A stretch of 32,000 bases of DNA from an uncultured delta proteobacterium (GCA_963716045.1 CAVQSS010000014.1:29972-61971), one strand, 5' to 3'. Positions 15,645 to 30,218 are shown, numbered from the stretch's first letter. A program made the numbers and translations. The notes: a model not told the origin generated them from the letters alone.

Positions 15645-15673
15645 TTGAGCTATACTTCTTTTTTTGATACTAT
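15645..15673 (+). promoter_or_regulatory. Candidate sigma70-type promoter upstream of the NDT/TIR-like gene
   Basis: TTGAGC (15645-50), a 17-nt spacer, then TACTAT (15668-73). It lies about 190 nt upstream of the ATG, so it is tentative. Confidence 0.3.
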
Positions 15674-15863
15674 CCGTCCGCTCTCAACCTTTTTTGAAAA
15701 CTTTTCGATAATCATCACCTTGAATTTTTTCGAACCGCCCCCCTCGGCCGATCAGGCGGTACGGGTTTCCCCGGTTGCTTGTAAGCAGGATCAACCGTTT
15801 TACCTGACGCGCAGTTATCGGCTCCGGCGGTCAGATCAATCCTGAATGAGGAGGTAATTTACC

Positions 15864-17070: not shown

Positions 17071-17460
17071 TAAATTTTTTTCGAGCCCACTGTCGTTCCT
17101 CCCCTTCAGGTTGAGTTTTCAAATAAATTTCCCTTCGTAGCTAACTCTCCCTTCCAAACTCCTAAACTCTACCTTCCTTTAAAGCCTCCTGTTTAGGTCT
17201 GATCATTTAATTAATTGAAATAAATAGGTTTTTATTGCCGGCCCTCCATGGCATGCACCTTGCTCCGAGGTATTAAAAAAGACCCCATCAAAAAAGGGGG
17301 CAGCCGCTGGACGAGCCTCCGGCACCCGACCTTCGGGAAGAACTTGACGAAATATCCCGGCAGGGCATCAAGGAACGGCTCTCCGCGGATATGCGGGAAC
17401 CTCTGATAAACAGGTTAGAGTAGCCGTTCGAACCCTCCGGGAAAATGAAAGGAGCGTCCA

Positions 17461-17916
17461 ATGAAAGTCCAATGGTCTTCCGTCTGGAAATTCGGCTGCT
17501 GGTTCTTTCTGGCCTTTACCATTGTCGTCCATACCCAGGAGCTGATCATCCGTTTCCTTCACCCGGTGGGCGGGGGGATCTTTCACGAAATTTTTGCCTA
17601 TTCCGGGGGAAGGGTCTATATGGCCAGGAAGGTTTTAAAAGAATACTTGATTGTCGATTCGGTCATCCTGGTGACCCTGATCATCTGCAATTATCCGCTC
17701 AACGGGGTGGTCCTGTCCCTGTTGGTTTCGGCGATTGGAACACTCAGTTGGTGGCTGGTCTGCACCTTTCCCTATCAGCGAAAGGGTTTTCAGGCCATGT
17801 GTTATTCCTATCTGGGCCTGGTTCCGTTAACCATCTTATCGATAGGCATGATTACCCTCTTTTTGAAAAAAAAGTGGACGCACAGAAATAACCAAAGTAA
17901 ATTCCCCAATAGTTAA
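17461..17916 (+). CDS. Hypothetical integral membrane protein (about 4 TM segments)
   Basis: AAAGGAG lies 6 nt before the ATG. Hydrophobic segments: FGCWFFLAFTIVV, VILVTLIICNYPL, VVLSLLVSAIGTLSWWLV, LGLVPLTILSIGMITLFL. The stop is 15 nt before the next gene. Confidence 0.55.
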   Translation: MKVQWSSVWKFGCWFFLAFTIVVHTQELIIRFLHPVGGGIFHEIFAYSGGRVYMARKVLKEYLIVDSVILVTLIICNYPLNGVVLSLLVSAIGTLSWWLVCTFPYQRKGFQAMCYSYLGLVPLTILSIGMITLFLKKKWTHRNNQSKFPNS

Positions 17917-17931
17917 AGATAGGAGGAGAAA

Positions 17932-18996
17932 ATGACCCGCACGAAAATAAGACCCCTTCGGTTTTTGGTCTTGGCGATCCTTTTGATCCTGATCATATCC
18001 GGTCCATCCGGGGCCGAATCCGGGAAAGCTCTTCTCGAATTTCCACTGGAATTTCTTTTAAAGGATACTCCACCAATTCGTTGTGTCGCCTTTTCCCCGT
18101 ACGTCTCGGGATACAATCCCGATACCGGGCCTCATCCGCCCGCGGCCCTGATCGATACACTCCTGGATGGGATCCGCTTCCGGGCGGGCTTTAATTGTAT
18201 CCTGACCTATGGCTTCCTGAATGGCCTGGATTATGTCATCGATGCGGCCCACGCCCGAGGGATGAAGGTGATTGCCGGCATCTGGCTCGATACCGACCCC
18301 GCCGTGAACGCTGCTTCCATAACGGCAGGGATCGCCAAGGCCAGCCAATACCCGGAGACCATCCTCCGCCTGAGCTGCGGCGTGGAACTGAGGAACCGGC
18401 GGGGGGCGACCGTATCCGAACCGATTATCCAGGATTGTCTGGCCCGGCTCCGGAATGCGGGGGTCACCCAGCCCCTGACCAGCATCGACACCTGGTGGCA
18501 GTGGTGCAACGAGGCCTGGCCCTGCCAGCCCCGGGGCCTGGCGGCCCAGATGGACTGGATCGGCATCAATGTCTATCCCTGGTGGGAGAACAAATACTCG
18601 GGGATTTTTCCCTGCACCACGGCCGCCGAGGCGGCCGCGTTCCATCTGGCCCGGGTGGGAACGGTCCAGTCGGTGTATCCTTCAAAGACCATCTGGTTGA
18701 CCGAGTTCGGCTGGCCGGCCGGGCCGGAGGGGTATTCGGAAACGAATGCCAATACCCAGCAGACCTGCGGGGTGGCCGGGGAAGCCAACCAGCGGCTGGT
18801 GATCGAACAATCCCTGCAACAACTGGAGCAGGCCGGCATCCAGTCCGTGGTATTTGAAGCGTTTCGGGAACCCTGGAAGGTCGAAGGACAGGTGGGACCC
18901 TACTGGGGTTTTTGCGAGGGAGTCCCCCCGTACCGCTGCCGTCAAGCCTACGGGTTTACCCACCGGGTTCACCTTCCCGTCCTGTTGAGAAAATGA
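17932..18996 (+). CDS. Secreted glycoside hydrolase family 17-like beta-1,3-glucanase/transglycosylase
   Basis: It has a signal peptide. INVYPWWEN corresponds to the GH17 NxYPYF block, and IWLTEFGWPAGPEG corresponds to the nucleophile block (ETGWPS). It is preceded by AGGAGGAGAAA ATG. Confidence 0.65.
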   Translation: MTRTKIRPLRFLVLAILLILIISGPSGAESGKALLEFPLEFLLKDTPPIRCVAFSPYVSGYNPDTGPHPPAALIDTLLDGIRFRAGFNCILTYGFLNGLDYVIDAAHARGMKVIAGIWLDTDPAVNAASITAGIAKASQYPETILRLSCGVELRNRRGATVSEPIIQDCLARLRNAGVTQPLTSIDTWWQWCNEAWPCQPRGLAAQMDWIGINVYPWWENKYSGIFPCTTAAEAAAFHLARVGTVQSVYPSKTIWLTEFGWPAGPEGYSETNANTQQTCGVAGEANQRLVIEQSLQQLEQAGIQSVVFEAFREPWKVEGQVGPYWGFCEGVPPYRCRQAYGFTHRVHLPVLLRK

Positions 18997-19142
18997 AATG
19001 GCCCCCAGGGGACGAGAGTAAAGCAACCCCAGCTTACAAGGCTATTCCAGCTAAAGCACTGGAAAACCCTCGGCCGCAGCGGCATTATTCAGTTTTTCAT
19101 CTTCTATTTTTTCAGTAGCCGGGTGAAGCCTAAAAGAACATA

Positions 19143-19170
19143 TTGACTTTTTAATTGGAATAACTATTAT
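19143..19170 (+). promoter_or_regulatory. Candidate sigma70-type promoter of the vapBC-like operon
   Basis: TTGACT (19143-48), a 16-nt spacer, then TATTAT (19165-70), about 30 nt upstream of the ATG at 19203, in an AT-rich stretch. Confidence 0.4.
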
Positions 19171-19202
19171 GGGAAGCATAACTTCATGCTAAGGTTAAAA
19201 AT

Positions 19203-19460
19203 ATGGAATTTATTCTAAAAGTATCACCAAAAGGACAAGTTGTACTTCCAAAAAAGCTCAGGGAAAGCCTGCAGGTCAAGGAACTGGTGGCCATCGAGAT
19301 CAAGGAACATACCGGTGTCGTAAAAAAGCCGATTCTTTCATCGGATAAGCTGGCCGGTTGTTTCAAAACCTATGCTTCCAGGAAAAATATCTCTTCCGAG
19401 GAGGCTATTGAAAAAGCCACGACGCTGGTTGCCCATGAAACGGCCAGGAAAAATCGTTGA
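19203..19460 (+). CDS. vapB: AbrB/SpoVT-family antitoxin (VapB-like)
   Basis: 85 aa. The N-terminal KVSPKGQVVLPKKLRESL is the swapped-hairpin AbrB/MazE motif. It overlaps the downstream PIN gene. Confidence 0.8.
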   Translation: MEFILKVSPKGQVVLPKKLRESLQVKELVAIEIKEHTGVVKKPILSSDKLAGCFKTYASRKNISSEEAIEKATTLVAHETARKNR

Positions 19461-19860
19461 TGCCAATGTCATCCTGCGGTTTTTCCTTCAGGATGACGAC
19501 GATCAGTTAATAAAGGCCAAGTCCTTCATCCAAAAGCTCGAACTGGGAAAGGCTGAAGCCCTTTTAACGGATATTGTTTTTGCCGAGGTGGTCTGGGTGA
19601 TGGGCAAGGTTTATGAAATCCCCCGTTCGGAGGTCTCCGAAAAGTTATCGAAACTCATCGATTATCGGGGGATGAAAACGGTCTTCCCCAAGGAGTTATA
19701 CACCGAAGCCCTGAAATTATATGCGAAACATTCAACCGATATCCAAGACATCCTGCTGGCCCTGCTCGCCCGACAAACCAACGCAACGATTGTCACTTTT
19801 GATAAAACCGACTTTAAAAAATTGCCTTGTGCCTATGAGGAGCCGGGAACTGCCGGATAA
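19435..19860 (+). CDS. vapC: PIN-domain ribonuclease toxin (VapC-like)
   Basis: The start is chosen at the ATG at 19435 (MKRPGKIVDANVILRFF...), which puts the first acidic PIN residue at the usual position (~9). Later acidic positions are present (FAEVVWV, DIQDILLA, VTFDKTDF). The track start at 19372 would overlap most of vapB. Confidence 0.8.
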   Translation: MKRPGKIVDANVILRFFLQDDDDQLIKAKSFIQKLELGKAEALLTDIVFAEVVWVMGKVYEIPRSEVSEKLSKLIDYRGMKTVFPKELYTEALKLYAKHSTDIQDILLALLARQTNATIVTFDKTDFKKLPCAYEEPGTAG

Positions 19861-19971: not shown

Positions 19972-20250
19972 TCACTTCGCTTCTGGATCTCGCTGCCACC
20001 GTAAATAACCCCTCCGGTAATCTGCCGTTTGGATCCCACCGCCTTGGCAAAATGATGCAGCCCCTTGGTCTAAACCTGCTTCCCCGCTCACACCCCAGCG
20101 GAGGTCGATGGCCTGAAAGCGGCATCCGCTCGCCTCACAGAGCTTCTGCAGCTCGGGAAAGACTTTCTCCTGGAGGGCGTTTCGCTCTACCTTTAGATCG
20201 CTGAATGTGGAACTGACAAAGACACGAAAGGTTAAATTGGTTTGGGCCAT
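19972..20250 (-). pseudogene. Truncated DUF4062-like N-terminal fragment (domain usually found at the N-terminus of STAND/NLR-like proteins)
   Basis: FRVFVSSTFSDLKVERNALQEKVFPELQKLCEASGCRFQAIDLRWGVSGEAGLDQ matches the DUF4062 signature (VF.SSTF.D...ER..L......IDLRWG). After about 62 aa the sequence degenerates and terminates at 92 aa. Confidence 0.55.
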
Positions 20251-20504
20251 ACTGATTGATATAAGGGTACTGTATTAAAGCTCTATGGTATCGCCGGGCG
20301 GGGCCCCCCACGAAGCATGAAAACGCAACTGTCAGATTAAGCTTGACCTTGTTCCGACCCGATCATCGTGAGGGCCGTTTAGTGTATGGAATGATGCCCC
20401 TCTTTACCCATCACCGGAAATATCCGCCAACCTCTTCTTTATTTCCTGGATGGCCACTAAAACGGAATTGTCAGGGTTGATATTTTGGCGGGCTAAAAGG
20501 GTAT

Positions 20505-20963
20505 CTAACTCCTCTGGCCGTGGTCTTCGGCGCAAAGGTATAAAGGAGAGTGGCTCTCCTGGCTTTTTCGGACCAACAAATCAAGATGATCCCATCCGAG
20601 ATATTCATCAAAGGCGGCCTTTCCCCACTGTAAGCACTGGAGTTCGCCGGCCATACCTGCAGGAAGACTCCCTTTACAGATAGGTAGTACCGGGATGTTA
20701 TGGGCCGTTGCGAAACCAATTTCTTGTTGAACCCATCCCTTTTTGATGGATTCCGGAGTAAAAAGCGGGAGGAAAACATGGGCATGGGCAATCGACTCTT
20801 CTATTTGATCCCGGAATCTGGTGCCCGGGATGAAGCCCTTGTCCATGATCGGTTGCAGACGATCGTCCTGATCCAAATAATTGAAGATTTCTTTGGCCAG
20901 CGTTTCATCTTTTTCATTATGGGAGTAACAGATAAAGATGCGATAAGGGTTATTGGCCTTCAT
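20505..20963 (-). CDS. Stand-alone TIR-domain protein
   Basis: MKANNPYRIFICYSHNEKDETLAKEIFNYL..., then VFLPLFTPESIKKGWVQQEIGFA with the conserved Glu of the W..(E) helix. The start at 20963 is preferred to 21026 because it fits the domain boundary, but no strong SD supports either. Confidence 0.75.
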   Translation of the reverse strand: MKANNPYRIFICYSHNEKDETLAKEIFNYLDQDDRLQPIMDKGFIPGTRFRDQIEESIAHAHVFLPLFTPESIKKGWVQQEIGFATAHNIPVLPICKGSLPAGMAGELQCLQWGKAAFDEYLGWDHLDLLVRKSQESHSPLYLCAEDHGQRS

Positions 20964-21110
20964 TGTTTCGCCTGCGGATTGGTCGGGGATAAGTGAATGC
21001 GGGAATCGGTAATGGTGATTCCCCATGCTTTACCAGGGCCGTGGTCCGGATAGATCCAGAACTTGCCCACCCGGGTCAAAGTGGAGGTCGTTGTGGGGGA
21101 GAGGGTAATT

Positions 21111-21593
21111 TCATTCATAAGGATAAAGCCTTTCCAATTCGTCAATGGTAACGGGCTGATTGCCATGATAAACCTGGAGAAAGCAAACCTGGCCATTTGG
21201 CTGGGTAAGAATAGCCTGCCCGTCGGATTTCAGAAGACAGGCCTCGCATTTCGACTCTCCATGCCAGAAGACCCTTCGGGAGTACAACCCCTTAAAAATA
21301 GTCAGATATCCACCTTTTTCACTTGAATGAAATAAAGTCCGCGAAACATTTAGTTTTCCTGCAATGGCTGTGCGGAGTACCGGAAATCTGTGGAGGGCAT
21401 CCTCAAGAGTATAGGAATTGATAGCCCGTCCCTCCCGGTCCCAGAGTCGCAGCAGCGTAGCGTCATCTGACCAGGAGAGGAACCGGTCGTCTTTGGTTTC
21501 CAGGGCACATAGGACCGAGTCCGTATGTCCTTCAAGGACGGCCGGGGGCGTCCCTCCCGGTCCCACAGCCGCAGCGTATGGTCTCCTGACCAA
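21111..21593 (-). CDS. Last WD40-like unit plus a unique ~105-aa C-terminal tail of the NLR-like gene (separate ORF only because of indels)
   Basis: It reads sensibly from AVLEGHTDSVLCALETKDDRFLSWSDDATLLRLWDREGRAINSY... to the stop at 21111. The first ~17 codons of the track ORF are out-of-frame repeat sequence. Confidence 0.6.
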   Translation of the reverse strand: MVRRPYAAAVGPGGTPPAVLEGHTDSVLCALETKDDRFLSWSDDATLLRLWDREGRAINSYTLEDALHRFPVLRTAIAGKLNVSRTLFHSSEKGGYLTIFKGLYSRRVFWHGESKCEACLLKSDGQAILTQPNGQVCFLQVYHGNQPVTIDELERLYPYE

Positions 21594-23225
21594 GAGAGGA
21601 AACGGCCGTCTTTGGTTTCCAGGACACCTCGGACCGAGTGCTTATGTCCTTCAAGGACGGCCTGGGGGCGTCCCTCCCGGTCCCACAGCCGCAGCGAGTC
21701 TCCTGACCAAGAGAGGAAACGGCCGTCCTTGGTTTCCAGGGCACCTTGGACAAATAGTCCTTATGTCCTTCAAGGACGGCCTGGGGGCGTCCCTCTCGGT
21801 CCCACAGGCGCAGCGTAGGGTCTCCCCAAGAGAGGAAACGGCCGTCTTTGGTTTCCAGGGCACCTCGGACCAAGTACGTATGTCCTTCAAGGACGGCCTG
21901 GGGGCGTCCCTCCCGGTCCCACAGGCGAAGCGTATAGTCATTTGACCAGGATGACCAGGAGAGGAAACGGCCGTCTTTGGTTTCCAGGGCACCTCGGACC
22001 AAGTCCGTATGTCCTTCAAGGACGGCCTGGGGGCGTCCCTCCCGGTCCCACAGGCGAAGCGTACGGTCTCCTGACCAAGAGAGCAAACGGCCGTCTTTGA
22101 TTTCCAGGGCACCTTGGACCGAGTCCGTATGTCCTTCAAGGACGGCCTGGGGGCGTCCCTCCCGGTCCCACAGGCGAAGCGTACGGTCTCCTGACCAAGA
22201 GAGCAAACGGTCGTCTTTGGTTTCCAGGGCACCTTGGACCAAGTTCGTATGTCCTTCAAGGACGGCCTGGGGGCGTCCCTCCCGGTCCCACAGACGCAGC
22301 GTACGGTCTCCTGACCAAGAGAGGAAACAGCCGTCTTTGGCTTCCAGGGCACCTTGGACCAAGTTCGTATGTCCTTCAAGGACGGCCTGGGGGCGTCCCT
22401 CCCGGTCCCACAGGCGCAGCGTATGGTCTCCTGACCAAGAGAGGAAACGGCCGTCTTTGGTTTCCAGGGCACCTCGGACCAAGTTCGTATGTCCTTCAAG
22501 GACGGCCTGGGGGCGTCCCTCCCGGTCCCACAGGCGCAGCGTAGGTCTCCTGACCAAGAGAGGAAACGGCCGTCTTTGGTTTCCAGGGCACCTTGGACCA
22601 AGTTCGTATGTCCTTCAAGGACGGCCTGGGGGCGTCCCTCCCGGTTCCACAGGCGCAGCGTATGTCATTTGACCAGGAGAGGAAACGGCCGTCTTTGGTT
22701 TCCAGGGCACCTTGGACCAAGTTCGTATGTCCCTCAAGTACGGCCTGGGGGCGTCCCTCCCGGTCCCACAGGCGCAGCGAGTCTCCTGACCAAGATAGGA
22801 AACGGCCGTCTTTGGTTTCCAGGGCGCCAATGACCGATTTCTTATGTCCTTCAAGGACGGCCTGGGGGCGTCCCTCCCGGTCCCAGAACCGCAGCGTATG
22901 GTCTCCTGACCAAGAGAGGAAACGGCCGTCTTTGGTTTCCAGGGCGCCAATGGACCGACTTCTTATGTCCCTCAAGGACGGCCTGGGGGCGTCCCTCCCG
23001 GTCCCAGAGCCGCAGCGTAGCGTCATTTGACCAGGAGAGAAACGGCCGTCCCTGGTTTCCAGGACGCCATGGACCCGATCCGTATGTCCATTAAGTACGA
23101 CCTGGGGGCGTCCCTCCCGGTCCCACAGGCGCAGCGTATGGTCTCCTGACCAAGAGAGGAAACGGCCGTCTTTGGTTTCCAGGGCACCTTGGACCAAGTT
23201 CGTATGTCCTTCAAGGACGGCCAGA
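21424..23225 (-). repeat. Tandem array of 15 WD40-like coding units (consensus 120 bp / 40 aa: LEGHTNLVQGALETKDGRFLSWSGDHTLRLWDREGRPQAV)
   Basis: The anchor aacggccgtc recurs at 21601, 21718, 21837, 21966, 22086, 22206, 22326 (variant), 22446, 22565, 22684, 22801, 22921, 23041 and 23161, plus a divergent copy near 21481. Spacings are mostly 120 nt (also 117, 119 and 129). Confidence 0.9.
21532..22557 (-). CDS. WD40-repeat segment of the NLR-like gene (internal ORF created by frameshifts)
   Basis: It translates as 6-7 consecutive canonical units (TLRLWDREGRPQAVLEGHTNLVRGALETKDGRFLSWSGD...) before leaving frame near 21750. Confidence 0.6.
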   Translation of the reverse strand: MVRRPTLRLWDREGRPQAVLEGHTNLVRGALETKDGRFLSWSGDHTLRLWDREGRPQAVLEGHTNLVQGALEAKDGCFLSWSGDRTLRLWDREGRPQAVLEGHTNLVQGALETKDDRLLSWSGDRTLRLWDREGRPQAVLEGHTDSVQGALEIKDGRLLSWSGDRTLRLWDREGRPQAVLEGHTDLVRGALETKDGRFLSWSSWSNDYTLRLWDREGRPQAVLEGHTYLVRGALETKDGRFLSWGDPTLRLWDREGRPQAVLEGHKDYLSKVPWKPRTAVSSLGQETRCGCGTGRDAPRPSLKDISTRSEVSWKPKTAVSSLGQETIRCGCGTGRDAPGRP

Positions 23226-25369
23226 CAGGGATTTTTTCCGGCATGCGGCACTCGTTGAACTCGGCGCAGCCATGACCAGTCACATCTCCCTTCCTCGAGC
23301 CACTTTTCGGCGCCCATGGTCAGTGGGCTGTCATCGGCGTGTTCGATGGCGAGTTGAATCAGGATCATATAGGCCGGCCATTCGGGGTTGCCCCGGCTGA
23401 CGATATGGGCCTTTTCCCGAAAAAATGCAGCCTCCAGATCCAGGGTTCTATCTACATCGAACAAAGAGATCGGAAGTTCCCGTAAATCTTTTAAAAGCCT
23501 TTCGAGCATACCTCGGCGGGTCTTTTCCATCAGGTAACGAAAATCTTTCAGGAGAAGGGCCAGCCTTGGGTAATCTTCGATCACCCGCAGGTGGGACGGC
23601 AGCCACTCAATAAAATAGTCCTCCATGGTTTCCGGCCCGGCTTCGTATTGCGACCAGCCATCATCAACGAGCAGCTTATGGCCGTGGGCCGTGTCGATGT
23701 AGTAGGGATAAGCGCTCTGGTTGACCGTGATCCAATCACGGATGGTCCCGTGGAAGGGCCGGATGGTATCATTGTCACTCTCCCCGCTGGCGGGAAACAG
23801 GGAGCCGAGGCGGTTGAGCCGGCGGAACAGGTCGGTTTTGCTTTCAAGCCCCCGGGACCTTTGGAGATAGCCCAGGGTCAGGGGCTCGAAGGAGGCCAGG
23901 ATAAGGTAGAGTAAGGGGGTGATTTCCTCCTCATAGTAGGTAAGGTCAGCGGCAAACTGGCGATCAAAAAAATGTTTGTATACGTCGCCCAGGCCCCGGG
24001 GGAATTCATCCGGATGGATCAAGCGGAGGCGACCGTTCCGGACCTCCTCGTAAACATAACGAATATACAGAAAGATACCTTCACTGCGGTCGATGAGGAT
24101 TTGAGTCAGCTCCGAGGTAATATCCGGGAACTGGGACCGAAGGAATTTACGGATATCTTCCAGGTTTTCCGCCCGGGAGGCGTCCAGGACATAAGGAGAA
24201 AGGGCCTGGAAGGAGGAGCGTATTTCCGGCTCCGGCCGGGAGGTGACCAGAAAACGCAGCCAGTGAGGCGTCTTGGGGGCGCAGAAGGTCAGGAACCGAA
24301 CGATTTCGTTCTGCCGCCGGTAGGTGGCCTCATCCAGGGCATCGATCAATATGACAATAGGGCGGTCCGGCTCCGGAAAATTGGGCGCCAGAGGTTGGAC
24401 AATTAATTTGTCAAAAAGGGTATACGCCTCGTGGAATTCCTGGACGATGGTTTCAAGGGGAAGCCTGGCCAGGCAGTCTAAGTAGTCGGGAAGCTGGGTG
24501 GAAAGCTGGTAGGCGATTGAAAGGACCAGCCGGGAAGGATCCCGCTTCTCCTCGCTGTTAACGTCGCAGAAATGAAAAGCGGCGATCTCCCTTCGGTGGT
24601 CGCGGATCCAGGCGGCCATGGCGCTCTTGCCGACCCCCGGGGCCCCGGTGATCCAGAAGATCCTTTTTCCGGAGGGGTCCTTCAACCAGGCATCGACTTC
24701 CTCGAACACCCACCGGCGGCCGGTGAAGTCCCGCAGAAGTCTGATGATGTCGGCGGAAAACTGGATGGGGCTGAGCACGCTCAGGAGGCGGCTTTGGGTG
24801 CCTTCAAAGTCCAGTTGTTTATCCTCGATGGCCCGGAGCAGGCGTTCGAAGAGGGGCTTATAGAAGGCCTCATTCTCGTTGATGGGGAGGCACTCCCGCA
24901 TATCCAGCCACTGGATGCGACAGATGGAAAGCGGGGGTTCGCTCTCGACAACCATCAGCGGGATGATGGAAAGCCCACGGGATAGGGCCCGGGCCACTTC
25001 GTTGAGGCAGTAACCATCCGGGCGGCGGACGGCGTGGGGGGTGAGGAGAAGCAGGACGGCGCTATTCGGAGGATCCTGGGTCAGGTCATCCAGGCCCTGC
25101 TCGATGAAGGCCTCCCAGTCATGGCCGGGCTGGAGCCGTTCCTCATCGAACCAGACCGTATGGCCCCTATCCTTCAGGTCGTCTTTGAGTCGAACGGCCA
25201 GCAAACTGTGCTCGTCGTGACCGTAGCTGATGAATAGGCGTCTGGGGATGAAAGGCTTTCCTATGAAAAACTCATGACGGCAGTCCGCACACAGATAAAG
25301 TTCCCGCTTCCTGCTGAAAACGACACTATCCGAATTGCAATGGGGACAGAAAGGTTTGTTGACGGCCAA
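22496..25369 (-). CDS. Zn-ribbon - TIR - NACHT/STAND NTPase - WD40 NLR-like protein (5' portion in one continuous frame)
   Basis: TTG start at 25369, 4 nt after GGAGGAGGGG. Motifs in order: CPHCNSDS...CADCRHEF zinc ribbon; TIR (RRLFISYGHDEHS...YCLNEVARAL); P-loop FWITGAPGVGKSAMAAW; Walker B VILIDALDEA; then WD40-like units from LAVLEGHTNLV. The true gene evidently continues to 21111. Confidence 0.85.
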   Translation of the reverse strand: MAVNKPFCPHCNSDSVVFSRKRELYLCADCRHEFFIGKPFIPRRLFISYGHDEHSLLAVRLKDDLKDRGHTVWFDEERLQPGHDWEAFIEQGLDDLTQDPPNSAVLLLLTPHAVRRPDGYCLNEVARALSRGLSIIPLMVVESEPPLSICRIQWLDMRECLPINENEAFYKPLFERLLRAIEDKQLDFEGTQSRLLSVLSPIQFSADIIRLLRDFTGRRWVFEEVDAWLKDPSGKRIFWITGAPGVGKSAMAAWIRDHRREIAAFHFCDVNSEEKRDPSRLVLSIAYQLSTQLPDYLDCLARLPLETIVQEFHEAYTLFDKLIVQPLAPNFPEPDRPIVILIDALDEATYRRQNEIVRFLTFCAPKTPHWLRFLVTSRPEPEIRSSFQALSPYVLDASRAENLEDIRKFLRSQFPDITSELTQILIDRSEGIFLYIRYVYEEVRNGRLRLIHPDEFPRGLGDVYKHFFDRQFAADLTYYEEEITPLLYLILASFEPLTLGYLQRSRGLESKTDLFRRLNRLGSLFPASGESDNDTIRPFHGTIRDWITVNQSAYPYYIDTAHGHKLLVDDGWSQYEAGPETMEDYFIEWLPSHLRVIEDYPRLALLLKDFRYLMEKTRRGMLERLLKDLRELPISLFDVDRTLDLEAAFFREKAHIVSRGNPEWPAYMILIQLAIEHADDSPLTMGAEKWLEEGRCDWSWLRRVQRVPHAGKNPCLAVLEGHTNLVQGALETKDGRFLSWSGDHTLRLWDREGRPQVVLNGHTDRVHGVLETRDGRFSPGQMTLRCGSGTGRDAPRPSLRDIRSRSIGALETKDGRFLSWSGDHTLRFWDREGRPQAVLEGHKKSVIGALETKDGRFLSWSGDSLRLWDREGRPQAVLEGHTNLVQGALETKDGRFLSWSNDIRCACGTGRDAPRPSLKDIRTWSKVPWKPKTAVSSLGQETYAAPVGPGGTPPGRP

Positions 25370-25396
25370 ATTTCCCCTCCTCCGGTAATTTCATTT

Positions 25397-25783: not shown

Positions 25784-26046
25784 CGGGGCTTTTTACTCCG
25801 GGCACTCTCCGGCCGAGTAAACCCCCAAAAACCGACTTCCGTCTTTTTCGAACCTATCCCCGGTTGAGCGACATCCAGGATTCCCTGAATCACCTCCCGC
25901 GCCTCAGACTCCAATTTCCCGGCCGCTTCCCGCAGGACCTCCAGATCGTTCAGACGTTTGGCCACCAGATGGAGCCTGGAAACATTGGCCTGGATGATGT
26001 TTTTCAACGGAAGCCACAAAGACTGGCCGCCCCAGGGGACTTCCAC
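25780..26046 (-). CDS. 3' part of the orphan gene downstream of the vWA gene (different frame from its 5' part)
   Basis: This frame is open upstream to at least 26139 and reads sensibly from about 26090 (GPGSLYRRLLKAYRCFLAVEVPWGGQSLWLPLKNIIQANVSRLHLVAKRLNDLEVLREAAGKLESEAREVIQGILDVAQ...). Confidence 0.5.
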   Translation of the reverse strand: MEVPWGGQSLWLPLKNIIQANVSRLHLVAKRLNDLEVLREAAGKLESEAREVIQGILDVAQPGIGSKKTEVGFWGFTRPESARSKKPR

Positions 26047-26953
26047 GGCGAGGAAACAGCGATAGGCCTTCAGGAGGCGCCGGTACAGGGATCCGGGCCC
26101 GCTGCGGCAACTCGTTGAGTCGGTCCCCTTCCAGTTGAATCAGCAGTTCCAGGAACGCATTGATGGGAGGTTGCGGATAAACGTCTCCAAAAAAACGCAG
26201 CAGCTCCTCGTTCACGGCGTTGCGCAGGTCACACAACTTCCCGTCCAGGCATAAATAGAGCAGTTCGATGGCGTTTTGAAATTGAACCAATCCGATCTGC
26301 CCGGCTGTCTGGACCGCCAACCGTTGATCGTCATGCCAGGCGGCCTGAAAAACCCGCCGGCCCAGCTCAAAAAGCAAATCATCCATTTCCCGGATCGTCG
26401 GGGTACCCGGGGTCCCGCCCCTTTTGCCTACCTGTTCCCGAAACTGGGAAAGGCGTAGAAAATAGCCTTCGTGCCCCTGATGCATCAACTTGACAAACCG
26501 GATATCCGGGGCCGGATACCCGGAGCTTTGATAGACATCGTCCACGACCAGGCTGTATTCTGAAAAAAAGTCTTTCCGGACCCGATATAGATAATAAACG
26601 GGCAGGCCGCTGGAACGCTGGCGCACATCCAGATAGAGAAAGGGGTCCAGGTCATAGAGAACCCTTCTCAGCGTTTCCCGGTTCACCAGGCATACCTTTT
26701 CTTTTTCGAACGGGGTCTCGAGGACGATGTCTTGCGCCAGGGTCTCGGTCAGCCGCCGAAGATCCCGGATGGTCCAGAGGGATTGTTCCATCTTCACTCT
26801 CAACCGGTCGTAGTTTCGGAGGTGGTCGATAAAAGGCTCCAGTGCCCGGTACAGATCCTGATCCGTAACGTACGTCACCCGGGGAGCGACGTACGGATAG
26901 GTATCGGCGTAAAAACCGTGATAGGGAGAACCGTATTGGTAGTGGTAAGCCAT
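25904..26953 (-). CDS. Orphan protein with a Tyr-rich N-terminus (5' part; about 390 aa if joined to 25780..26046)
   Basis: The ATG at 26953 (MAYHYQYGSPYHGFYADTYPYVAPRVTYV...) lies 14 nt after the vWA stop and is preceded by AAAGGGGAAG. The sequence is sensible up to ...LIQLEGDRLNELPQ, then becomes Pro/Gly/Arg junk. I recognise no domain. Confidence 0.55.
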   Translation of the reverse strand: MAYHYQYGSPYHGFYADTYPYVAPRVTYVTDQDLYRALEPFIDHLRNYDRLRVKMEQSLWTIRDLRRLTETLAQDIVLETPFEKEKVCLVNRETLRRVLYDLDPFLYLDVRQRSSGLPVYYLYRVRKDFFSEYSLVVDDVYQSSGYPAPDIRFVKLMHQGHEGYFLRLSQFREQVGKRGGTPGTPTIREMDDLLFELGRRVFQAAWHDDQRLAVQTAGQIGLVQFQNAIELLYLCLDGKLCDLRNAVNEELLRFFGDVYPQPPINAFLELLIQLEGDRLNELPQRARIPVPAPPEGLSLFPRRGSPLGRPVFVASVEKHHPGQCFQAPSGGQTSERSGGPAGSGREIGV

Positions 26954-26969
26954 AATCTTCCCCTTTCGG

Positions 26970-29087
26970 CTATCGTTTGGCCACCAGCCGGCTTCGTTCC
27001 TTGATGCAGGAAGCCACGTACAGGCCGATCTTCTCGGCCACGGCCCCATAGTTCTCCAACTCCGGTCCGGAAACGGTGATCACCCGGTCAAGCAGATCCT
27101 CAAACCCCGTCTCCCCCGACACCCCGAGGGCCACCAGGGTCGTATGGAGCTTGTGGGATTTGGATTCATAAAGGCCGCGAAACAATTCCTGGACTTCCTG
27201 CCTGCCGTCGCGATCAGTCCGGAAACTCCGATTCCAGGCAGTATCGGATAAGACAATGAGATAGATCATGTCCCCCCGGGCCAGGCGCCCGGCCTCCTCC
27301 AGAATAAAGGCCAGGGAGAGGGCATCCGACTGCACTCCCGTCCCGCTGGCGGGCAGGGACACCAGGGCGCGGACCGCGTCCAGCCGGCTGGCCGCCGGCG
27401 TCTTTTCCGGGTGATAGAGCCACTGGACCAGGGGACCACTGAGGCCCTTCCGGATTTGCCCGCTGTGATACAGTGCCGCCAGGAATTGGATCTGAGTCCG
27501 GGAGGTGGAATTAGCCTCGGCCGCACACAATATCTTGACCATTTTCATTTGATTTTGATTCAGTGACCCGGAGCCGTCACAGGCGACGACCAGTACCGGC
27601 CGGCCCCGGGGATCGGCCCGTTCTTCGAGGCGATAGCGGCGGTAAATGGTCGAGGAGAAGCCCGCCAGGGCCAGCCGGGCCGGATCGATGGACCCACTGG
27701 TTCGGAGCCGCTGGGTTTCCGGTATCTGATCCACGCTGGGATATAAATTTCTCCTTAAGGCTTCGGTGATGGGTTGGGCGGCCCTCAAGAGATCTTCACA
27801 GGCAGCGGGATTGTGAGCCGGTTCTACGGGTCGGTCATAGATTTCCCCGGCGGCGGGCTGCCCTCCCAAAGAAATCGTTACTTCGTGGCCATCCGCCGGA
27901 TGGCCTTCAATGAGGCCTCCCTGAAAGGGAGACGCCGCCAAAGACTTCTCCACCAGATCCGAACGCATGTCCTCCCACTGGCGGTCCTGTCCGCCGGCCT
28001 GGGCCAGGGCCTCCGAAAAACGGTTCAGGGTCTTTTTGAAATCCTCCATCAGCGGATCGGCCTCGGGCTGGGCTTTCCCACCGGCTTCGAGCGGTTCCAG
28101 GGCCTTGAAAGCGGCGTTGATGAAGGCATCCTTGGCCGTGGCCGTTTCGAACAGAGCCGGCGCCTGAAGTCCTTCCAGCGGCGCGAAATCCCCGCTCTCG
28201 ATAAACCCCATGAGATTTCTATGGAAGCGGTACCCCGTTGGGTTGAATTTTTTTCCGGTATCAGCGGAGGACCCGCCGATGCTATCAGGGTCCGCTGTCG
28301 CCGGCGACGGCAAGTAGACGGCCAGCCCTCGGCAGACGACCCGCACCCAAGAGCTACCCAAGGAAAGCATCTGCGGCCCTCGGGAATGGCCGATCTTAAC
28401 CAGGAATGGAGCGGAGAGATCGTACAATTCCTGCAGCAAGATTCGGGTAAAGGGATGGAGCTCCAAATCCCGCCAGTCGGGAAGAAGGTCCCCGAAAAGG
28501 ATGACCGCCCTCAGGATCTCCGGGAGATAGCGGAATTGCAGGCTCTGCTGGGAGGCGGAAAACAGCCGGTAGGCCTCTACTGCCTTCAGGGATTCCGTCT
28601 GCACCAGGTCTTCCAACAACAGTCGCTTATGGACCAGTTCGGCCACGGTTTTACAAAGTTTTCTATAAATATCCGGATCCACCTCGACCTCATCGAAGGC
28701 CCCCGGGTTTTCCAGGTATTCTTTGAGGTCCGCGACCAGCGACTTCTGCGGCACCCGGGCTTCGTATTCCAAAAAAGCGGTTTGCCCGATGGCGGCCACG
28801 GCGGCCGGTGTGGCCGGATAGGTGGTATAACACGGCCCCAGTTGCGGTTTGACCTTGGGTTGGAAATCGGATTCCCGCTCGCCGCAGAGTCGGGCCACCT
28901 TTTTCTGGATCTTTTGCACTTCCCGGTAAAACAGGCGCAGGGCCGGCAGCCGGTCGGGGTAGTCCAGGCTGCTTTTAAAGGCATCGCCCAGACTGGTTCC
29001 GGCCCAGTTCGATTTCAACCTTTTTTCATAAGAAGGATAGGAGTACCCTTCCCAGGTTGTTTTCTTTTGACGGCTTTCTCCGTTCAT
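26970..29087 (-). CDS. vWA-domain protein of the NorD/CbbO/CobT-like class (long N-terminal region plus a C-terminal MIDAS-containing vWA)
   Basis: The ATG at 29087 (MNGESRQ...) follows GGGAGG. The C-terminal third shows SGSIDPARLALAGFSSTIYRRYRLEE...RPVLVVACDGSGSL (DxSxS MIDAS), later SGTGVQSDAL and IVLSDTAWN. This matches the layout of AAA-partner vWA proteins. Confidence 0.8.
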   Translation of the reverse strand: MNGESRQKKTTWEGYSYPSYEKRLKSNWAGTSLGDAFKSSLDYPDRLPALRLFYREVQKIQKKVARLCGERESDFQPKVKPQLGPCYTTYPATPAAVAAIGQTAFLEYEARVPQKSLVADLKEYLENPGAFDEVEVDPDIYRKLCKTVAELVHKRLLLEDLVQTESLKAVEAYRLFSASQQSLQFRYLPEILRAVILFGDLLPDWRDLELHPFTRILLQELYDLSAPFLVKIGHSRGPQMLSLGSSWVRVVCRGLAVYLPSPATADPDSIGGSSADTGKKFNPTGYRFHRNLMGFIESGDFAPLEGLQAPALFETATAKDAFINAAFKALEPLEAGGKAQPEADPLMEDFKKTLNRFSEALAQAGGQDRQWEDMRSDLVEKSLAASPFQGGLIEGHPADGHEVTISLGGQPAAGEIYDRPVEPAHNPAACEDLLRAAQPITEALRRNLYPSVDQIPETQRLRTSGSIDPARLALAGFSSTIYRRYRLEERADPRGRPVLVVACDGSGSLNQNQMKMVKILCAAEANSTSRTQIQFLAALYHSGQIRKGLSGPLVQWLYHPEKTPAASRLDAVRALVSLPASGTGVQSDALSLAFILEEAGRLARGDMIYLIVLSDTAWNRSFRTDRDGRQEVQELFRGLYESKSHKLHTTLVALGVSGETGFEDLLDRVITVSGPELENYGAVAEKIGLYVASCIKERSRLVAKR

Positions 29088-29134
29088 GTCCAGGCCTCCC
29101 ACCGGCCCGCTCCAACGAGACCGAAACGGGTCGG

Positions 29135-30139: not shown

Positions 30140-30218
30140 GATGTTCTCCTTTCCATTGGGGTTGTTGTCCTACCAAAAACAATTTGATCTCACCCCGGTC
30201 CCGCGAGTGGAGACCGGC

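What the first reader, a model, noticed from the sequence alone, without database searches (positions are those of the whole stretch)
21111..25369. Bacterial NLR-like gene: Zn-ribbon + TIR + NACHT + 15 WD40-like units + unique C-terminal tail
The domain order is read directly from motifs:
- CPHC...CADC ribbon
- TIR with the conserved Glu in YCLNEVARAL
- GAPGVGKS P-loop
- VILIDALDEA Walker B
- 40-aa GH...WD units
- a non-repeat tail ending ...VTIDELERLYPYE

TIR-STAND-repeat proteins are established as anti-phage or cell-death sensors in bacteria (Avs/bNACHT-type) and as NLRs in eukaryotes. A Zn-ribbon in front of the TIR and a stand-alone TIR gene just downstream are less common. If repaired, the gene would encode about 1420 aa.
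Basis: partly seen in the sequence, partly recalled or inferred. Interest (0 to 1): 0.7.

Follow-up and report, generated by a model that had tools for sequence, protein, structure and literature searches.

The report
Frameshifted bacterial TIR-NACHT-WD40 immune sensor gene
This is an ordinary member of a large, untested family of bacterial NLR-like immune sensors (zinc ribbon, NAD-cleaving TIR domain, NACHT ATPase, propeller of near-identical WD40 repeats), and its reading frame is broken six times inside the repeats, possibly by assembly error.

Summary
On the minus strand, 25369..21111, there is one gene. A TTG start follows a strong ribosome-binding site. The domain order is a 4-Cys zinc ribbon, TIR_2, a NACHT-type P-loop NTPase (Pfam NPHP3_N, 99 bits), a winged-helix plus Apaf-1-like helical domain, 15 WD40 units of 40 aa, and a roughly 105-aa tail. 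Six 1-nt indels, all inside the 120-bp x 15 array, break the frame. Repairing them gives 1,420 aa with no stop codon.

It is not unusual. The N-terminal 715 aa has 1,671 cluster representatives at E<=1e-30, across many bacterial phyla and some archaea. An intact 1,430-aa counterpart with the same architecture exists in a Nitrospirae MAG. The zinc ribbon occurs in at least 59% of close relatives. The "unique" tail is conserved in the subfamily. The downstream TIR-only gene is not a conserved partner.

The repeats behave like fungal HET-E repeats: units are 77-99% identical and amino-acid changes cluster at six codons. The frameshifts are confined to the array, and four of six lie at hypervariable codons. 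The TIR-NACHT part and the tail look undamaged. So the breaks are either consensus errors or very recent inactivation; I lean slightly towards error. The likely mechanism is ligand-triggered oligomerisation that activates a TIR NADase. Verdict: new member of a known kind, modest interest.

The parts
21111..25369 (-). Whole NLR-like gene (ZnR-TIR-NACHT-WHD-helical-WD40x15-tail). It encodes 1,420 aa after six 1-nt repairs. As assembled, the first ORF is 957 aa (22496..25369).
   Evidence: P0001 is the exact 957-aa ORF in NCBI/ENA
25374..25383 (-). Shine-Dalgarno-like GGAGGAGGGG, 4 nt upstream of the TTG start codon at 25369-25367
   Evidence: read directly from the sequence; N-termini of homologues align with this start
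25268..25354 (-). N-terminal 4-Cys zinc ribbon (aa 6-34; C8, C11, C27, C30)
   Evidence: Zn_ribbon_IS1595 29.6 bits, above cut-off; Cys 90-100% conserved in A1; two beta-hairpins at pLDDT 78-93 in the AF2 model
24890..25240 (-). TIR domain (aa 44-160). The putative catalytic Glu E124 is encoded at 24998-25000.
   Evidence: TIR_2 61 bits; E124 (E123 in A2 numbering) invariant in 80 sequences; aligned to the SARM1 HKEIV glutamate
24236..24712 (-). NACHT-type P-loop NTPase (aa 220-378). Walker A GAPGVGKS is at 24623-24646, Walker B VILIDALDE at 24329-24355, and the sensor-1-like LVTSRP lies downstream.
   Evidence: NPHP3_N 97-99 bits; NACHT PF05729 21.4 bits, below its cut-off; no NB-ARC hit; G244/G246/K247 and D342 invariant in A2 numbering
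23309..23929 (-). Winged-helix (HTH_TANC1-like, aa 481-567) and Apaf-1-HD2-like helical domain (aa 572-687) linking the NTPase to the propellers
   Evidence: HTH_TANC1 26.7 bits (cut-off 27) and APAF1_C 20 bits (cut-off 22.8); family profile aligns to Apaf-1 residues 397-912; AF2 model versus Apaf-1 TMq 0.47
21417..23221 (-). Array of 15 WD40 units (120-bp period) with high internal conservation. Hypervariable codons are 7, 8, 9, 11, 26 and 28 of each unit.
   Evidence: AF2 single-sequence model gives 15 four-stranded blades at pLDDT about 80-90; top PDB matches are 2ymu and Apaf-1
21543..23038 (-). Span holding the six 1-nt frameshifts. Approximate sites: 23038 (-1, unit 2), 22952 (+1, unit 3), 22663 (-1, unit 5), 22543 (-1, unit 6), 21750 (-1, unit 13), 21543 (-1, unit 14).
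   Evidence: unit alignment and repair
21111..21416 (-). C-terminal tail (about 105 aa plus stop). It is a subfamily-conserved module with motif W-H-G..C..L..dG.aivTQ.nGqVCFLkly.Gn.r.tl.EL. The fold is not resolved.
   Evidence: tblastn hits in L003, L001, L004, L055; alignment A3; no Pfam hit; pLDDT <50; no profile similarity to the WD unit
20505..21026 (-). Downstream TIR-only gene. The true start is probably MKANN at 20963, giving about 152 aa. It is not a conserved partner of the NLR.
   Evidence: TIR_2 58 bits, weak ThsB-like hits; 27% identity to the NLR's own TIR; a single homologue, P0122
19972..20250 (-). 5' remnant (about 68 aa) of a DUF4062-STAND gene. This gene is the conserved downstream neighbour of the NLR in the syntenic locus L003.
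   Evidence: DUF4062/NPHP3 weak Pfam hits; 73.5% identity to L003 11278..; the L003 gene is at least 587 aa and starts with an ATGA overlap on the NLR stop; custom HMM 88 bits

Best explanation
The gene encodes a single-chain NLR-like (STAND) immune sensor from a large, widespread but experimentally untested prokaryotic family. The domain order is zinc ribbon, TIR, NACHT-type ATPase (NPHP3/TEP1/HET-E-like), winged helix, Apaf-1-like helical domain, a double WD40 propeller and a conserved C-terminal module.

Proposed mechanism (inferred by analogy, not shown here):
1. In the resting state the propellers hold the ATPase closed.
2. A ligand binds the top face of the propellers, where the six hypervariable positions of each repeat lie. 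The ligand is probably a phage or other non-self protein.
3. Binding permits nucleotide exchange and NACHT-driven oligomerisation.
4. Oligomerisation brings the N-terminal TIR domains together into an active NADase that uses Glu124.
5. NAD+ depletion, or a nucleotide signal, stops growth of the infected cell.

The repeats evolve like fungal HET-E repeats: concerted evolution keeps the scaffold nearly identical, while the contact positions diversify.

In this assembly six single-base indels in the array break the frame. They are either consensus or assembly errors in a near-identical tandem array (about 55%) or a very recent inactivation (about 45%). In either case the gene was under selection until very recently.
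For: **Shown by computation**
- Domain calls are well above chance.
- The AF2 model of aa 2-716 has pLDDT 88.7 and pTM 0.81. Its best structural matches are the plant TIR-NLRs RPP1 and WRR4A, MalT, Apaf-1 (TMq 0.47) and CED-4.
- TIR Glu124, Walker A and Walker B are invariant in 80 relatives.
- The window differs from consensus at only 3 of 162 strongly conserved columns, ranking 8th best of 80.
- There are 15 blades. The sensor resembles the Nostoc highly repetitive propeller 2ymu and Apaf-1.
- 38 of 56 non-synonymous differences between units, and 0 of 27 synonymous ones, fall on codons 7, 8, 9, 11, 26 and 28. The other 34 codons show 18 N against 27 S. These positions correspond to het-d/e positions 10, 11, 12, 14, 30 and 32 (PMC12222747).
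- The family is large: 1,671 representatives at E<=1e-30, and 66 loci in GTDB species genomes from many phyla and some archaea.
- Intact counterparts exist: L003 at 1,430 aa and L055 at 1,307 aa, and P0124 and P0125.
- The context is a defence or toxin island: HipA, VapBC, a TIR effector-like ORF, a TIR-only gene and a DUF4062 remnant.

**For the error-or-very-recent reading of the frameshifts**
- All six lie in the 1.8-kb array of a 4.26-kb gene (binomial p about 0.006). None lies in the four long neighbouring ORFs (about 9.5 kb), two of which show full-length Pfam domain coverage.
- Four of six lie in the hypervariable zones, which are 20% of the unit (p about 0.017).
- The repaired frame has no stop codon.
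- The tail downstream of all six shifts is still conserved.
- Units 1, 6 and 7 are 98-99% identical over 120 nt.
- None of about nine related arrays has an internal frameshift.
- PMC12222747 documents a 1-bp deletion misassembly in an HIC WD40 array from ONT R9 data, and chimeric repeats in short-read assemblies.
Against: - No member of this family has been tested. PADLOC and NCBIfam have no model for it. Ligand, oligomerisation and NADase activity are all inferred by analogy with Apaf-1, plant TIR-NLRs, SARM1, bNACHT/Avs and TEP1.
- The canonical Pfam NACHT model scores below its cut-off (21.4 against 26.7). The closest solved folds are NB-ARC-type proteins, not NACHT-type proteins.
- Some evidence favours real decay over error. 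The locus has genuinely decayed elsewhere: the DUF4062-STAND partner is cut to 68 aa. Relatives are often broken too: an IS66 insertion in L001, an isolated remnant in L068, and a gene called in pieces in JGI 3300075153.
- Only two of the six indels (units 2 and 5) are plain shortenings of a two-base run. The unit 3, 6 and 14 indels are not, and unit 13 also carries in-frame indels.
- The sequencing technology of the contig is unknown.
Confidence: 0.75

Rival explanations
1. The six frameshifts are real. The gene is a recently inactivated pseudogene in a decaying NLR cluster. As assembled, its product would be a 957-aa TIR-NACHT protein with a scrambled, truncated sensor, or nothing.
For: - The conserved neighbour, a DUF4062-STAND gene, is truncated to a 68-aa remnant, and a foreign TIR-only gene lies between the two.
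- Relatives show independent disruptions: IS66 in L001, a remnant in L068, and a fragmented gene in JGI 3300075153.
- Only two of the six indels (units 2 and 5) are plain shortenings of a two-base run; the unit 3, 6 and 14 indels are not.
- PMC12222747 also reports read-supported stop codons in a natural het-d allele.
Against: - Neutral decay should scatter lesions over the whole gene. Here it is 6 of 6 in the array (p about 0.006). The TIR-NACHT part has 3 of 162 conserved-column mismatches, better than the family median.
- There are no stop codons in the repaired frame, dN/dS is about 0.2 at scaffold codons, and the tail is conserved.
- From my own knowledge, roughly ten substitutions are expected per indel in bacteria. 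Six indels should then bring tens of substitutions and a few nonsense codons.
Confidence: 0.42
2. The TIR is a signal generator and not a terminal NAD+ depleter. On activation it makes a cyclic-ADPR-type or related nucleotide that switches on a separate effector, as in Thoeris or plant TIR-NLRs.
For: - The TIR's best NCBIfam and PADLOC similarities are to Thoeris ThsB/ThcB4-type and SAVED-TIR models, all weak.
- Structural neighbours include the plant TIR-NLRs RPP1 and WRR4A.
- A second TIR gene and other TIR-like ORFs lie nearby.
Against: - No ThsA-like, SAVED, SLOG or other nucleotide-sensor effector was found among the neighbouring genes scanned.
- No conserved partner of that type appears in the syntenic locus L003.
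- The weak sequence match to solved structures is to the NAD+-consuming SARM1 TIR.
Confidence: 0.15
3. It is a sensor for something other than phage. Candidates are kin or non-self (allorecognition-like) discrimination, or another cell-death or developmental checkpoint, as for fungal HET-E/HET-D, whose architecture and repeat evolution it mirrors.
For: - It shows the same HIC repeat behaviour and the same hypervariable positions as het-d/e (PMC12222747).
- The family is found mostly in environmental Deltaproteobacteria/Desulfobacterota, Nitrospirae, Myxococcales, Planctomycetota, Acidobacteriota and similar groups.
- NLR-like genes cluster, several per locus.
Against: - Defence-type neighbours are present (TA modules, TIR effectors).
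- Published bacterial NACHT and STAND proteins with similar architectures act against phage (10.1101/2022.07.19.500537; PMC13581612).
- Nothing in the locus points to a polymorphic self ligand.
Confidence: 0.12
4. The frameshifts are functional: contingency-type on/off switching, or programmed frameshifting within the repeats.
For: - The indels coincide with the hypervariable codons.
- Two of the three frames of the repeat unit lack stop codons, so long ORFs persist after a shift.
Against: - Six separate shifts of mixed sign cannot be read through by any known programmed mechanism.
- There are no long homopolymer or short-unit tracts at the sites.
- Related arrays are all in one frame.
Confidence: 0.03

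Closest known systems
Podospora anserina HNWD proteins (HET-E, HET-D, HET-R): HET(TIR-like)-NACHT-WD40 NLRs with high-internal-conservation repeats
   Same: - The order is the same: death or NADase-type N-domain, NACHT of the NPHP3_N/HET-E type, then WD40 units.
- Units are nearly identical at the DNA level, with variation concentrated at the same repeat positions (7, 8, 9, 11, 26, 28 here; 10, 11, 12, 14, 30, 32 there).
- The repeat number suits two propellers, and a divergent C-terminal segment follows the array.
   Different: - The N-domain is a canonical TIR_2 preceded by a zinc ribbon, not a HET domain.
- Units are 40 aa, not 42 aa.
- The host is prokaryotic and the ligand is unknown.
- The tail could not be shown to be cryptic blades.
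Human TEP1 / NWD1 / NWD2 / NPHP3 and bacterial DUF4062-STAND proteins (DUF4062 TIR-like NADase-NACHT-helical-WD40)
   Same: - It has the same NACHT subtype (Pfam NPHP3_N), an Apaf-1-like helical domain and WD40 repeats.
- A NAD-cleaving TIR-type domain sits in the N-terminal effector position.
- A DUF4062-STAND gene is the syntenic neighbour in L003, and a remnant of it lies in the window.
   Different: - The effector is TIR_2, not DUF4062.
- It has an extra zinc ribbon.
- Swarozyc, the tested bacterial DUF4062 system, has a different auxiliary domain and senses the phage portal (10.64898/2026.05.01.722283).
Bacterial NACHT (bNACHT) and Avs anti-phage STANDs
   Same: - It has the tripartite layout of effector, STAND NTPase and repeat sensor.
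- TIR effectors, beta-propeller sensors and zinc ribbons are all listed among bacterial NACHT architectures (10.1101/2022.07.19.500537).
- WD40 'Apaf1-like' sensors are noted in the 589-clade STAND survey (PMC13581612).
   Different: - There is no significant match to any PADLOC model; the best is Avs1b at 17 bits.
- None of the tested bNACHT or Avs proteins is a close relative by the searches run here.
- The clade assignment within those phylogenies was not determined.
Apaf-1 (and CED-4)
   Same: - Among solved structures it gives the best global superposition of the NOD-WHD-helical part (TMq 0.47).
- The helical domain and propellers align to Apaf-1 residues 397-912 at profile level.
- There are 15 blades, which from my own knowledge equals Apaf-1's 7+8.
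   Different: - The NTPase is NACHT-like by sequence (DALDE Walker B, NPHP3_N), not NB-ARC.
- The effector is TIR, not CARD.
Plant TIR-NLRs (RPP1, ROQ1, WRR4A) and SARM1
   Same: - It has an N-terminal TIR with the catalytic Glu in a (W/Y)CLNE(L/V) context, fused to a STAND NTPase. RPP1 and WRR4A are top Foldseek hits.
- SARM1 is the best, though weak, sequence match for the TIR.
   Different: - The sensor is WD40, not LRR.
- The NTPase clade is NACHT, not NB-ARC.
- There is no evidence for a downstream EDS1-like pathway.
Nostoc punctiforme highly repetitive WD40 propeller (PDB 2ymu)
   Same: It is the top structural and profile match for the array (Foldseek E=1.9e-42 at 34% identity; profile E=8e-48). 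It is also a bacterial tandem array of near-identical WD40 units forming two propellers.
   Different: The PDB entry covers only a repeat domain. Its N-terminal context and function are not comparable from the data here.

Membership tests
TIR-domain NADase | Match to a TIR profile above the curated cut-off | tested here: met
   TIR_2 PF13676 at 61.2 bits against a cut-off of 28, aa 46-159
TIR-domain NADase | Catalytic glutamate in the conserved position | tested here: met
   E124 in PDGYCLNEV is invariant in 80 relatives. It aligns with the Glu of SARM1 'HKEIV' (that alignment is marginal, E=0.06).
TIR-domain NADase | NAD+ hydrolase or cyclase activity | not testable with these tools
   Needs a biochemical assay of the repaired protein or an intact orthologue
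NACHT clade of STAND NTPases | Walker A GxxxxGK[ST], and Walker B hhhhD followed by [GAS]-h-D-E | tested here: met
   GAPGVGKS (242-249) and VILIDALDE (339-347), read from the sequence. G, K and D are invariant in A2. That this motif defines the clade is from my knowledge of Koonin & Aravind 2000.
NACHT clade of STAND NTPases | Match to a NACHT-type profile above the curated cut-off | tested here: inconclusive
   NPHP3_N (PF24883, the TEP1/NPHP3/HET-E-type NACHT) scores 99 bits against a cut-off of 24.8. Canonical NACHT PF05729 scores only 21.4 bits against 26.7. There is no NB-ARC hit at E<=1. Many homologues carry precomputed PF05729, and one carries PF00931.
NACHT clade of STAND NTPases | NOD followed by a winged helix and a helical domain (STAND module), seen structurally | tested here: met
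   AF2 model at pLDDT 88.7. Foldseek hits are RPP1, MalT, Apaf-1 and CED-4. The nearest solved folds are NB-ARC-type, so the structure supports STAND membership but does not discriminate the clade.
Known anti-phage STAND systems (Avs1-5, bNACHT, others in PADLOC 2.0) | Significant full-length match to the system's HMM | tested here: not met
   The only relevant hits are Avs1b at E=1.3e-4 (17 bits) and weak TIR-model hits. The strongest hit overall, HEAT-ARM_XIII (E=7.6e-24, 81 bits), covers only about 100 positions of a 1,972-position model and lies inside the WD40 array. NCBIfam gives only a sub-threshold ThcB4 TIR hit.
Known anti-phage STAND systems (Avs1-5, bNACHT, others in PADLOC 2.0) | Demonstrated protection against phage | not testable with these tools
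   No experimental data were found for this family in the literature searched
HIC (high internal conservation) WD40 NLRs, HET-E type | Tandem WD40 units nearly identical at the nucleotide level | tested here: met
   TRF reports 89% matches over 14.9 copies. Pairwise unit identity is 77-99%, with units 1, 6 and 7 at 98-99%.
HIC (high internal conservation) WD40 NLRs, HET-E type | Amino-acid variation concentrated at a few positions on the propeller's interaction face | tested here: met
   38 of 56 non-synonymous and 0 of 27 synonymous differences fall at codons 7, 8, 9, 11, 26 and 28. The register matches het-d/e positions 10, 11, 12, 14, 30 and 32. The mapping to the top face is from published WD40 work and was not measured on the model.
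HIC (high internal conservation) WD40 NLRs, HET-E type | N-terminal HET domain | tested here: not met
   The N-domain is zinc ribbon plus TIR_2; there is no HET hit. This is therefore an analogue, not a member of the fungal HNWD family.
Thoeris (ThsB TIR + ThsA effector), considered for the downstream TIR-only gene | ThsB-type TIR protein next to a ThsA-type (SIR2/SLOG, or TM/Macro) effector | tested here: not met
   ThsB models hit only weakly (E=2e-5). No ThsA-like protein is among the neighbours scanned.

The most novel reading that the evidence does not exclude
The array may be a bacterial counterpart of the fungal het-e/het-d recognition repertoire. On this reading it is a rapidly reshuffling receptor whose contact codons are diversified by inter-unit recombination. 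The single-base indels at exactly those codons would be real by-products of that process, giving frequent on/off variants in the population and not sequencing noise. A related point is that the syntenic ATGA-coupled pair in L003 (TIR-NACHT-WD40 followed by DUF4062-STAND) could be a bacterial 'paired NLR'.
Probability: 0.08. Interest if true: 0.7.

Novelty: new member of a known kind. Interest (0 to 1): 0.33.

Why it matters
If intact, the gene would be one more example of how widely the TIR-NACHT-WD40 design is used in prokaryotes: more than 1,600 distinct 50%-identity clusters, bacteria and archaea. This design links fungal HET-E, human TEP1/NWD1/NPHP3 and Apaf-1.

The family has no PADLOC or NCBIfam model and no tested member. 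An intact orthologue, such as the 1,430-aa gene in the Nitrospirae MAG (L003), would be a reasonable candidate for a phage-defence and NADase test, and for asking what a hypervariable bacterial WD40 propeller recognises.

There is also a practical lesson. Frameshifts confined to near-identical repeat arrays in MAG contigs should not be read as pseudogenes without checking the reads.

This particular copy adds little beyond that.

Tried and rejected
- **Exact look-up of the 957-aa ORF's contig.** It is not on record. Cluster look-up gave no accession or organism, so the source organism and sequencing technology remain unknown. The window's genome is not among the GTDB representatives; the best locus is 67% identical.
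- **Sequence search of the NOD against PDB.** Nothing useful came back. The family-profile search was swamped by WD40 hits and did not resolve NACHT against NB-ARC.
- **Search for a sister-strain copy of the array or tail, to judge the frameshifts.** None is closer than 43%. The only near-identical neighbour sequence is the TIR-only gene P0122, and its contig DNA could not be fetched.
- **Tail as cryptic WD blades.** hhalign against the WD unit gave probability 0.6%. The AF2 tail has pLDDT below 50. The idea is left open, neither accepted nor rejected.
- **'Paired NLR' operon.** DUF4062-STAND genes are near the TIR-NLR in 9 of 67 loci. They are tightly coupled only in L003; gaps elsewhere are 0.5-4.7 kb, or the gene lies upstream or on the other strand. 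I treat this as clustering and not as an obligate pair.
- **Thoeris reading of the TIR-only gene.** Rejected: hits are weak and there is no ThsA.
- **TIR-only gene as a duplicate of the NLR's TIR.** Rejected: 27% identity.
- **Promoter and terminator scan.** Nothing above shuffled expectation.
- **General sequencing-error explanation.** Rejected, because the four long neighbouring ORFs (about 9.5 kb) show no frameshift.

Full report
**1. What is in the sequence**

On the minus strand, a TTG at 25369 follows GGAGGAGGGG (25374-25383) after a 4-nt spacer. It opens a frame that runs cleanly for about 2.15 kb and then enters a tandem array. TRF reports period 120, 14.9 copies, 89% matches, at 21427-23222.

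Anchoring on the LEGH motif gives 15 units of 120, 119, 121, 117, 119, 119, 120, 120, 120, 120, 129, 117, 119, 119 and 120 nt. The 119- and 121-nt units shift the frame six times. As assembled, the gene therefore falls into ORFs of 957, 341 and 160 aa in three frames.

Aligning the units places the six lesions as single-base indels: five deletions and one insertion. They lie at about 23038, 22952, 22663, 22543, 21750 and 21543. Repairing them yields 4,263 nt, or 1,420 aa, with no internal stop.

**2. Domain identity**

Pfam results for the repaired protein:
- TIR_2 at aa 46-159, 61 bits.
- NPHP3_N at aa 220-378, 97-99 bits.
- HTH_TANC1 (26.7 bits) and APAF1_C (20 bits), both near their cut-offs.
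- Massive WD40 matches from aa 716.
- The first 44 residues alone pass the Zn_ribbon_IS1595 cut-off.
- Canonical NACHT (PF05729) scores 21.4 bits, below its cut-off of 26.7. NB-ARC does not hit at all.

The Walker B reads VILIDALDE. This is the D-[GAS]-h-D-E form that, from my knowledge of the original NACHT description, marks that clade.

An AF2 model of aa 2-716, built on 80 homologues, is confident (pLDDT 88.7, pTM 0.81). Foldseek finds the plant TIR-NLRs RPP1 and WRR4A, MalT, Apaf-1 (best TM, 0.47) and CED-4. The fold is therefore TIR plus a STAND module. Structure does not settle the clade; sequence favours the NPHP3/TEP1/HET-E-type NACHT.

Glu124 in PDGYCLNEV is invariant in 80 relatives. 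It aligns with the glutamate of SARM1's HKEIV (a weak alignment).

PADLOC has no model for this protein. The best STAND hit is Avs1b at 17 bits. The strongest hit overall, HEAT-ARM_XIII, matches only about 100 positions inside the WD40 array. NCBIfam gives only a sub-threshold Thoeris-III TIR match.

**3. How common it is**

The N-terminal 715 aa finds 17,672 representatives at E<=1e-3 and 1,671 at E<=1e-30, among 1.84 billion 50%-identity clusters. It is encoded in 66 loci of GTDB species genomes. These are Deltaproteobacteria/Desulfobacterota, Nitrospirae, Sumerlaeota, Victivallales, Ignavibacteria, Acidobacteriota, Planctomycetota, Bacteroidota and Alphaproteobacteria, plus methanogens and a Lokiarchaeon. 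The sensors are WD40 or TPR.

The exact 957-aa ORF is on record (P0001, a 62-kb contig) but without a name. The organism is not among the representatives, and the nearest relative is 67% identical.

Intact full-length counterparts exist:
- L003, a Nitrospirae MAG: 1,430 aa with the same domain order, an HIC array and the same tail.
- L055: 1,307 aa.
- P0124: 1,457 aa. P0125: 1,438 aa.

**4.

- *The zinc ribbon is the rule in this family.* A CxxC...Cxx[CH] precedes the TIR in at least 63 of 107 top hits. C8, C11, C27 and C30 are 90-100% conserved in the closest 13.
- *The tail is not unique.* It is found by tblastn in L003 (46% over 98 aa), L001, L004 and L055. It is also present in P0003, P0005, P0123, P0124 and P0245-P0253. 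The shared motif is W-H-G..C..L..dG.aivTQ.nGqVCFLkly.Gn.r.tl.EL. It has no Pfam match and no profile similarity to the WD unit. Its predicted structure is low-confidence: a few strands plus a terminal helix, pLDDT below 50. By analogy with the cryptic C-terminal blades proposed for HET-E (PMC12222747) it may close the second propeller, but I could not show this.
- *The TIR-only gene is not a conserved partner.* The gene at 20505-21026 probably starts at MKANN (20963). It is 27% identical to the NLR's TIR. It has one homologue in the whole protein collection (P0122, 97%). It is absent from L003.

What is conserved downstream is a DUF4062-STAND gene. In L003 its ATG overlaps the NLR stop (ATGA), and the gene runs for at least 587 aa. 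In the window only the first 68 aa survive, at 73.5% identity (19972-20250). The remnant is followed directly by the end of the convergent VapC gene of a VapBC module. DUF4062 was recently shown to be a TIR-like NADase, and DUF4062-NACHT-helical-WD40 is the architecture of human TEP1, NWD1/2 and NPHP3 (10.64898/2026.05.01.722283). DUF4062-STAND genes lie near the TIR-NLR in 9 of 67 related loci, but they are tightly coupled only in L003.

**5. The repeats**

Units are 77-99% identical at the DNA level. Units 1, 6 and 7 are 98-99% identical across the full 120 nt.

In the repaired frame, differences from the consensus codon split sharply. Codons 7, 8, 9, 11, 26 and 28 carry 38 non-synonymous and 0 synonymous differences. 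The other 34 codons carry 18 non-synonymous and 27 synonymous. Allowing for the 3-residue offset and the shorter unit, these are the positions used to classify het-d/het-e repeats for their high dN/dS: 10, 11, 12, 14, 30 and 32 (PMC12222747). In WD40 propellers those positions lie on the ligand-binding top face; this comes from published work and was not measured here.

A single-sequence AF2 model folds the 15 units into four-stranded blades at pLDDT about 80-90. Its best PDB matches are the Nostoc 'highly repetitive propeller' 2ymu (34% identity) and full-length Apaf-1. The family profile also aligns its helical domain plus propellers to Apaf-1 residues 397-912.

This is therefore a bacterial example of the known HIC-repeat phenomenon. 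PMC12222747 already notes, citing a tree-of-life survey of WD40 proteins, that HIC is most frequent in fungal and bacterial genomes.

**6. Are the frameshifts real?**

For error or very recent origin:
- All six lie in the 1.8-kb array of a 4.26-kb gene (p about 0.006).
- None occurs in the four long neighbouring ORFs (1,172, 889, 710 and 398 aa, about 9.5 kb). The P-type ATPase and HipA show full-length Pfam domain coverage.
- Four of six lie within the hypervariable zones, which are 20% of the unit (p about 0.017).
- The TIR-NACHT part departs from the family consensus at 3 of 162 strongly conserved columns, against a median of about 8.
- The repaired array has no stop codon and keeps a purifying pattern at scaffold codons.
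- The tail, downstream of every shift, is still conserved.
- About nine related arrays are each in a single frame.
- PMC12222747 reports that HIC WD40 arrays are mis-built by short-read assemblers, and that a 1-bp deletion in an ONT R9 assembly was a misassembly.

For real decay:
- The neighbouring DUF4062-STAND gene is truncated, which repeat error cannot explain.
- Relatives are often disrupted: IS66 in L001, an isolated 'one unit plus tail' remnant in L068, and a gene called in four pieces in JGI 3300075153.
- Only two of the six indels (units 2 and 5) are plain shortenings of a two-base run. The unit 3, 6 and 14 indels are not, and unit 13 combines its deletion with in-frame indels.
- The same paper also documents read-supported stop codons in a natural het-d allele.
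- The TIR-only gene differs from P0122 by a frame change outside any repeat. One of the two assemblies therefore carries an indel there too.

I put error at about 55% and genuine, very recent inactivation at about 45%. Long neutral decay is excluded by the state of the rest of the gene.

**7. Mechanism**

Shown by computation: the domain composition, conserved catalytic and nucleotide-binding residues, the STAND fold, an Apaf-1-like helical domain plus about 15 blades, hypervariable positions in the HET-E register, and a toxin/defence neighbourhood.

Inferred by analogy with Apaf-1, plant TIR-NLRs, SARM1, TEP1 and bacterial NACHT/Avs proteins:
1. A ligand binds the propellers and releases autoinhibition.
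2. The NACHT module exchanges nucleotide and oligomerises.
3. The clustered TIR domains become an active NADase, or possibly a nucleotide-signal synthase.
4. The cell arrests or dies.

The role of the zinc ribbon is unknown. It is conserved with the TIR across both WD40- and TPR-bearing relatives, so it probably serves the effector end, in TIR assembly or restraint, and not ligand sensing.

**8. Verdict**

The finding is real and, in its main claim, correctly interpreted. It is a new member of a known kind, in a very large family that survey papers already describe. Several supposedly unusual features are family norms. The copy in the window is either mis-assembled or freshly broken. Interest is modest. 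The useful follow-up is on an intact orthologue, plus a read-level check of the array.

Noticed in passing
window 19972-20250 (-); L003 11278-13033: A 92-aa ORF is the 5' remnant of a DUF4062-STAND gene. Its first 68 aa are 73.5% identical to L003. In L003 the full gene starts with an ATGA overlap on the stop of the intact NLR orthologue. In the window the rest of the gene is missing, and the convergent VapC gene (VapBC module) ends 112 bp away.
   Followed up: yes
window 20471-21026 (-): The TIR-only gene's single homologue, P0122 (97% identity, JGI sample 3300075153), switches after '...LQCLQWG' to what is the other reading frame in the window (ORF 20471-20791). The two assemblies therefore differ by a 1-nt indel outside any repeat. 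Which one is correct is unknown. P0122 also lies in a different upstream context.
   Followed up: partly
JGI 3300075153, 23-kb contig carrying P0246 (no DNA available): In the same metagenome as P0122 there is a cluster with a TIR_2-NB-ARC-APAF1_C-WD40 gene (1,332 aa). It is followed by DUF4062 (93 aa), NPHP3_N (530 aa), an 81-aa ORF and a WD-plus-tail ORF (236 aa). The last four look like one DUF4062-NACHT-WD40-tail gene called in pieces. The conserved tail module is therefore not restricted to TIR-type NLRs.
   Followed up: no
L001 8001-14514: The closest homologue (P0002, 67% identity) is split inside its WD array by an IS66 element (TnpB plus DDE transposase). The 3' remainder with the tail is at 13576-14514. 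A DUF4062 gene and a NACHT-TPR gene lie just upstream.
   Followed up: partly
L068 1373-1870: This is an isolated gene remnant consisting of one WD unit plus the conserved tail, with no NLR upstream, on a 227-kb contig. It is further evidence that these genes turn over quickly.
   Followed up: partly
P0005 (1,207 aa), residues about 990-1090: A relative carries a second TIR domain inserted between the WD array and the conserved tail. In the window a separate TIR gene follows the NLR.
   Followed up: no
window 25904-32000 (-): Four same-strand genes lie upstream of the NLR. They are a 381-aa protein with no hits; a 710-aa protein with no Pfam hit but a DGSGS stretch that resembles a vWA MIDAS motif by eye only; a weak AAA_5 (MoxR-like) protein of 334 aa; and an AAA_2/ClpA-like ATPase that reaches the window edge. 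This may be a separate NTPase-based conflict system. There are no PADLOC hits.
   Followed up: partly
window 13860-19860: Other toxin or defence-type genes lie nearby. They are HipA (13860-15056, -), an ORF with a PADLOC 'Effector TIR' hit at E=4e-10 (15864-16688, +) that overlaps a 191-aa ORF in another frame, and VapB/VapC (19203-19860, +). Two almost fully overlapping ORFs at 17445-17916 are unexplained.
   Followed up: no
P0123 (1,948 aa): A 67%-identical relative continues about 700 aa beyond the conserved tail, into a region unrelated to NLRs. It could be a gene fusion or a missed stop. It was not analysed.
   Followed up: no
window 21418-23030 (+): Several long ORFs (145-231 aa) lie antisense to the WD array, and long out-of-frame ORFs lie on the sense strand. 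They exist only because most frames of the 120-nt unit lack stop codons, and they are not genes.
   Followed up: yes
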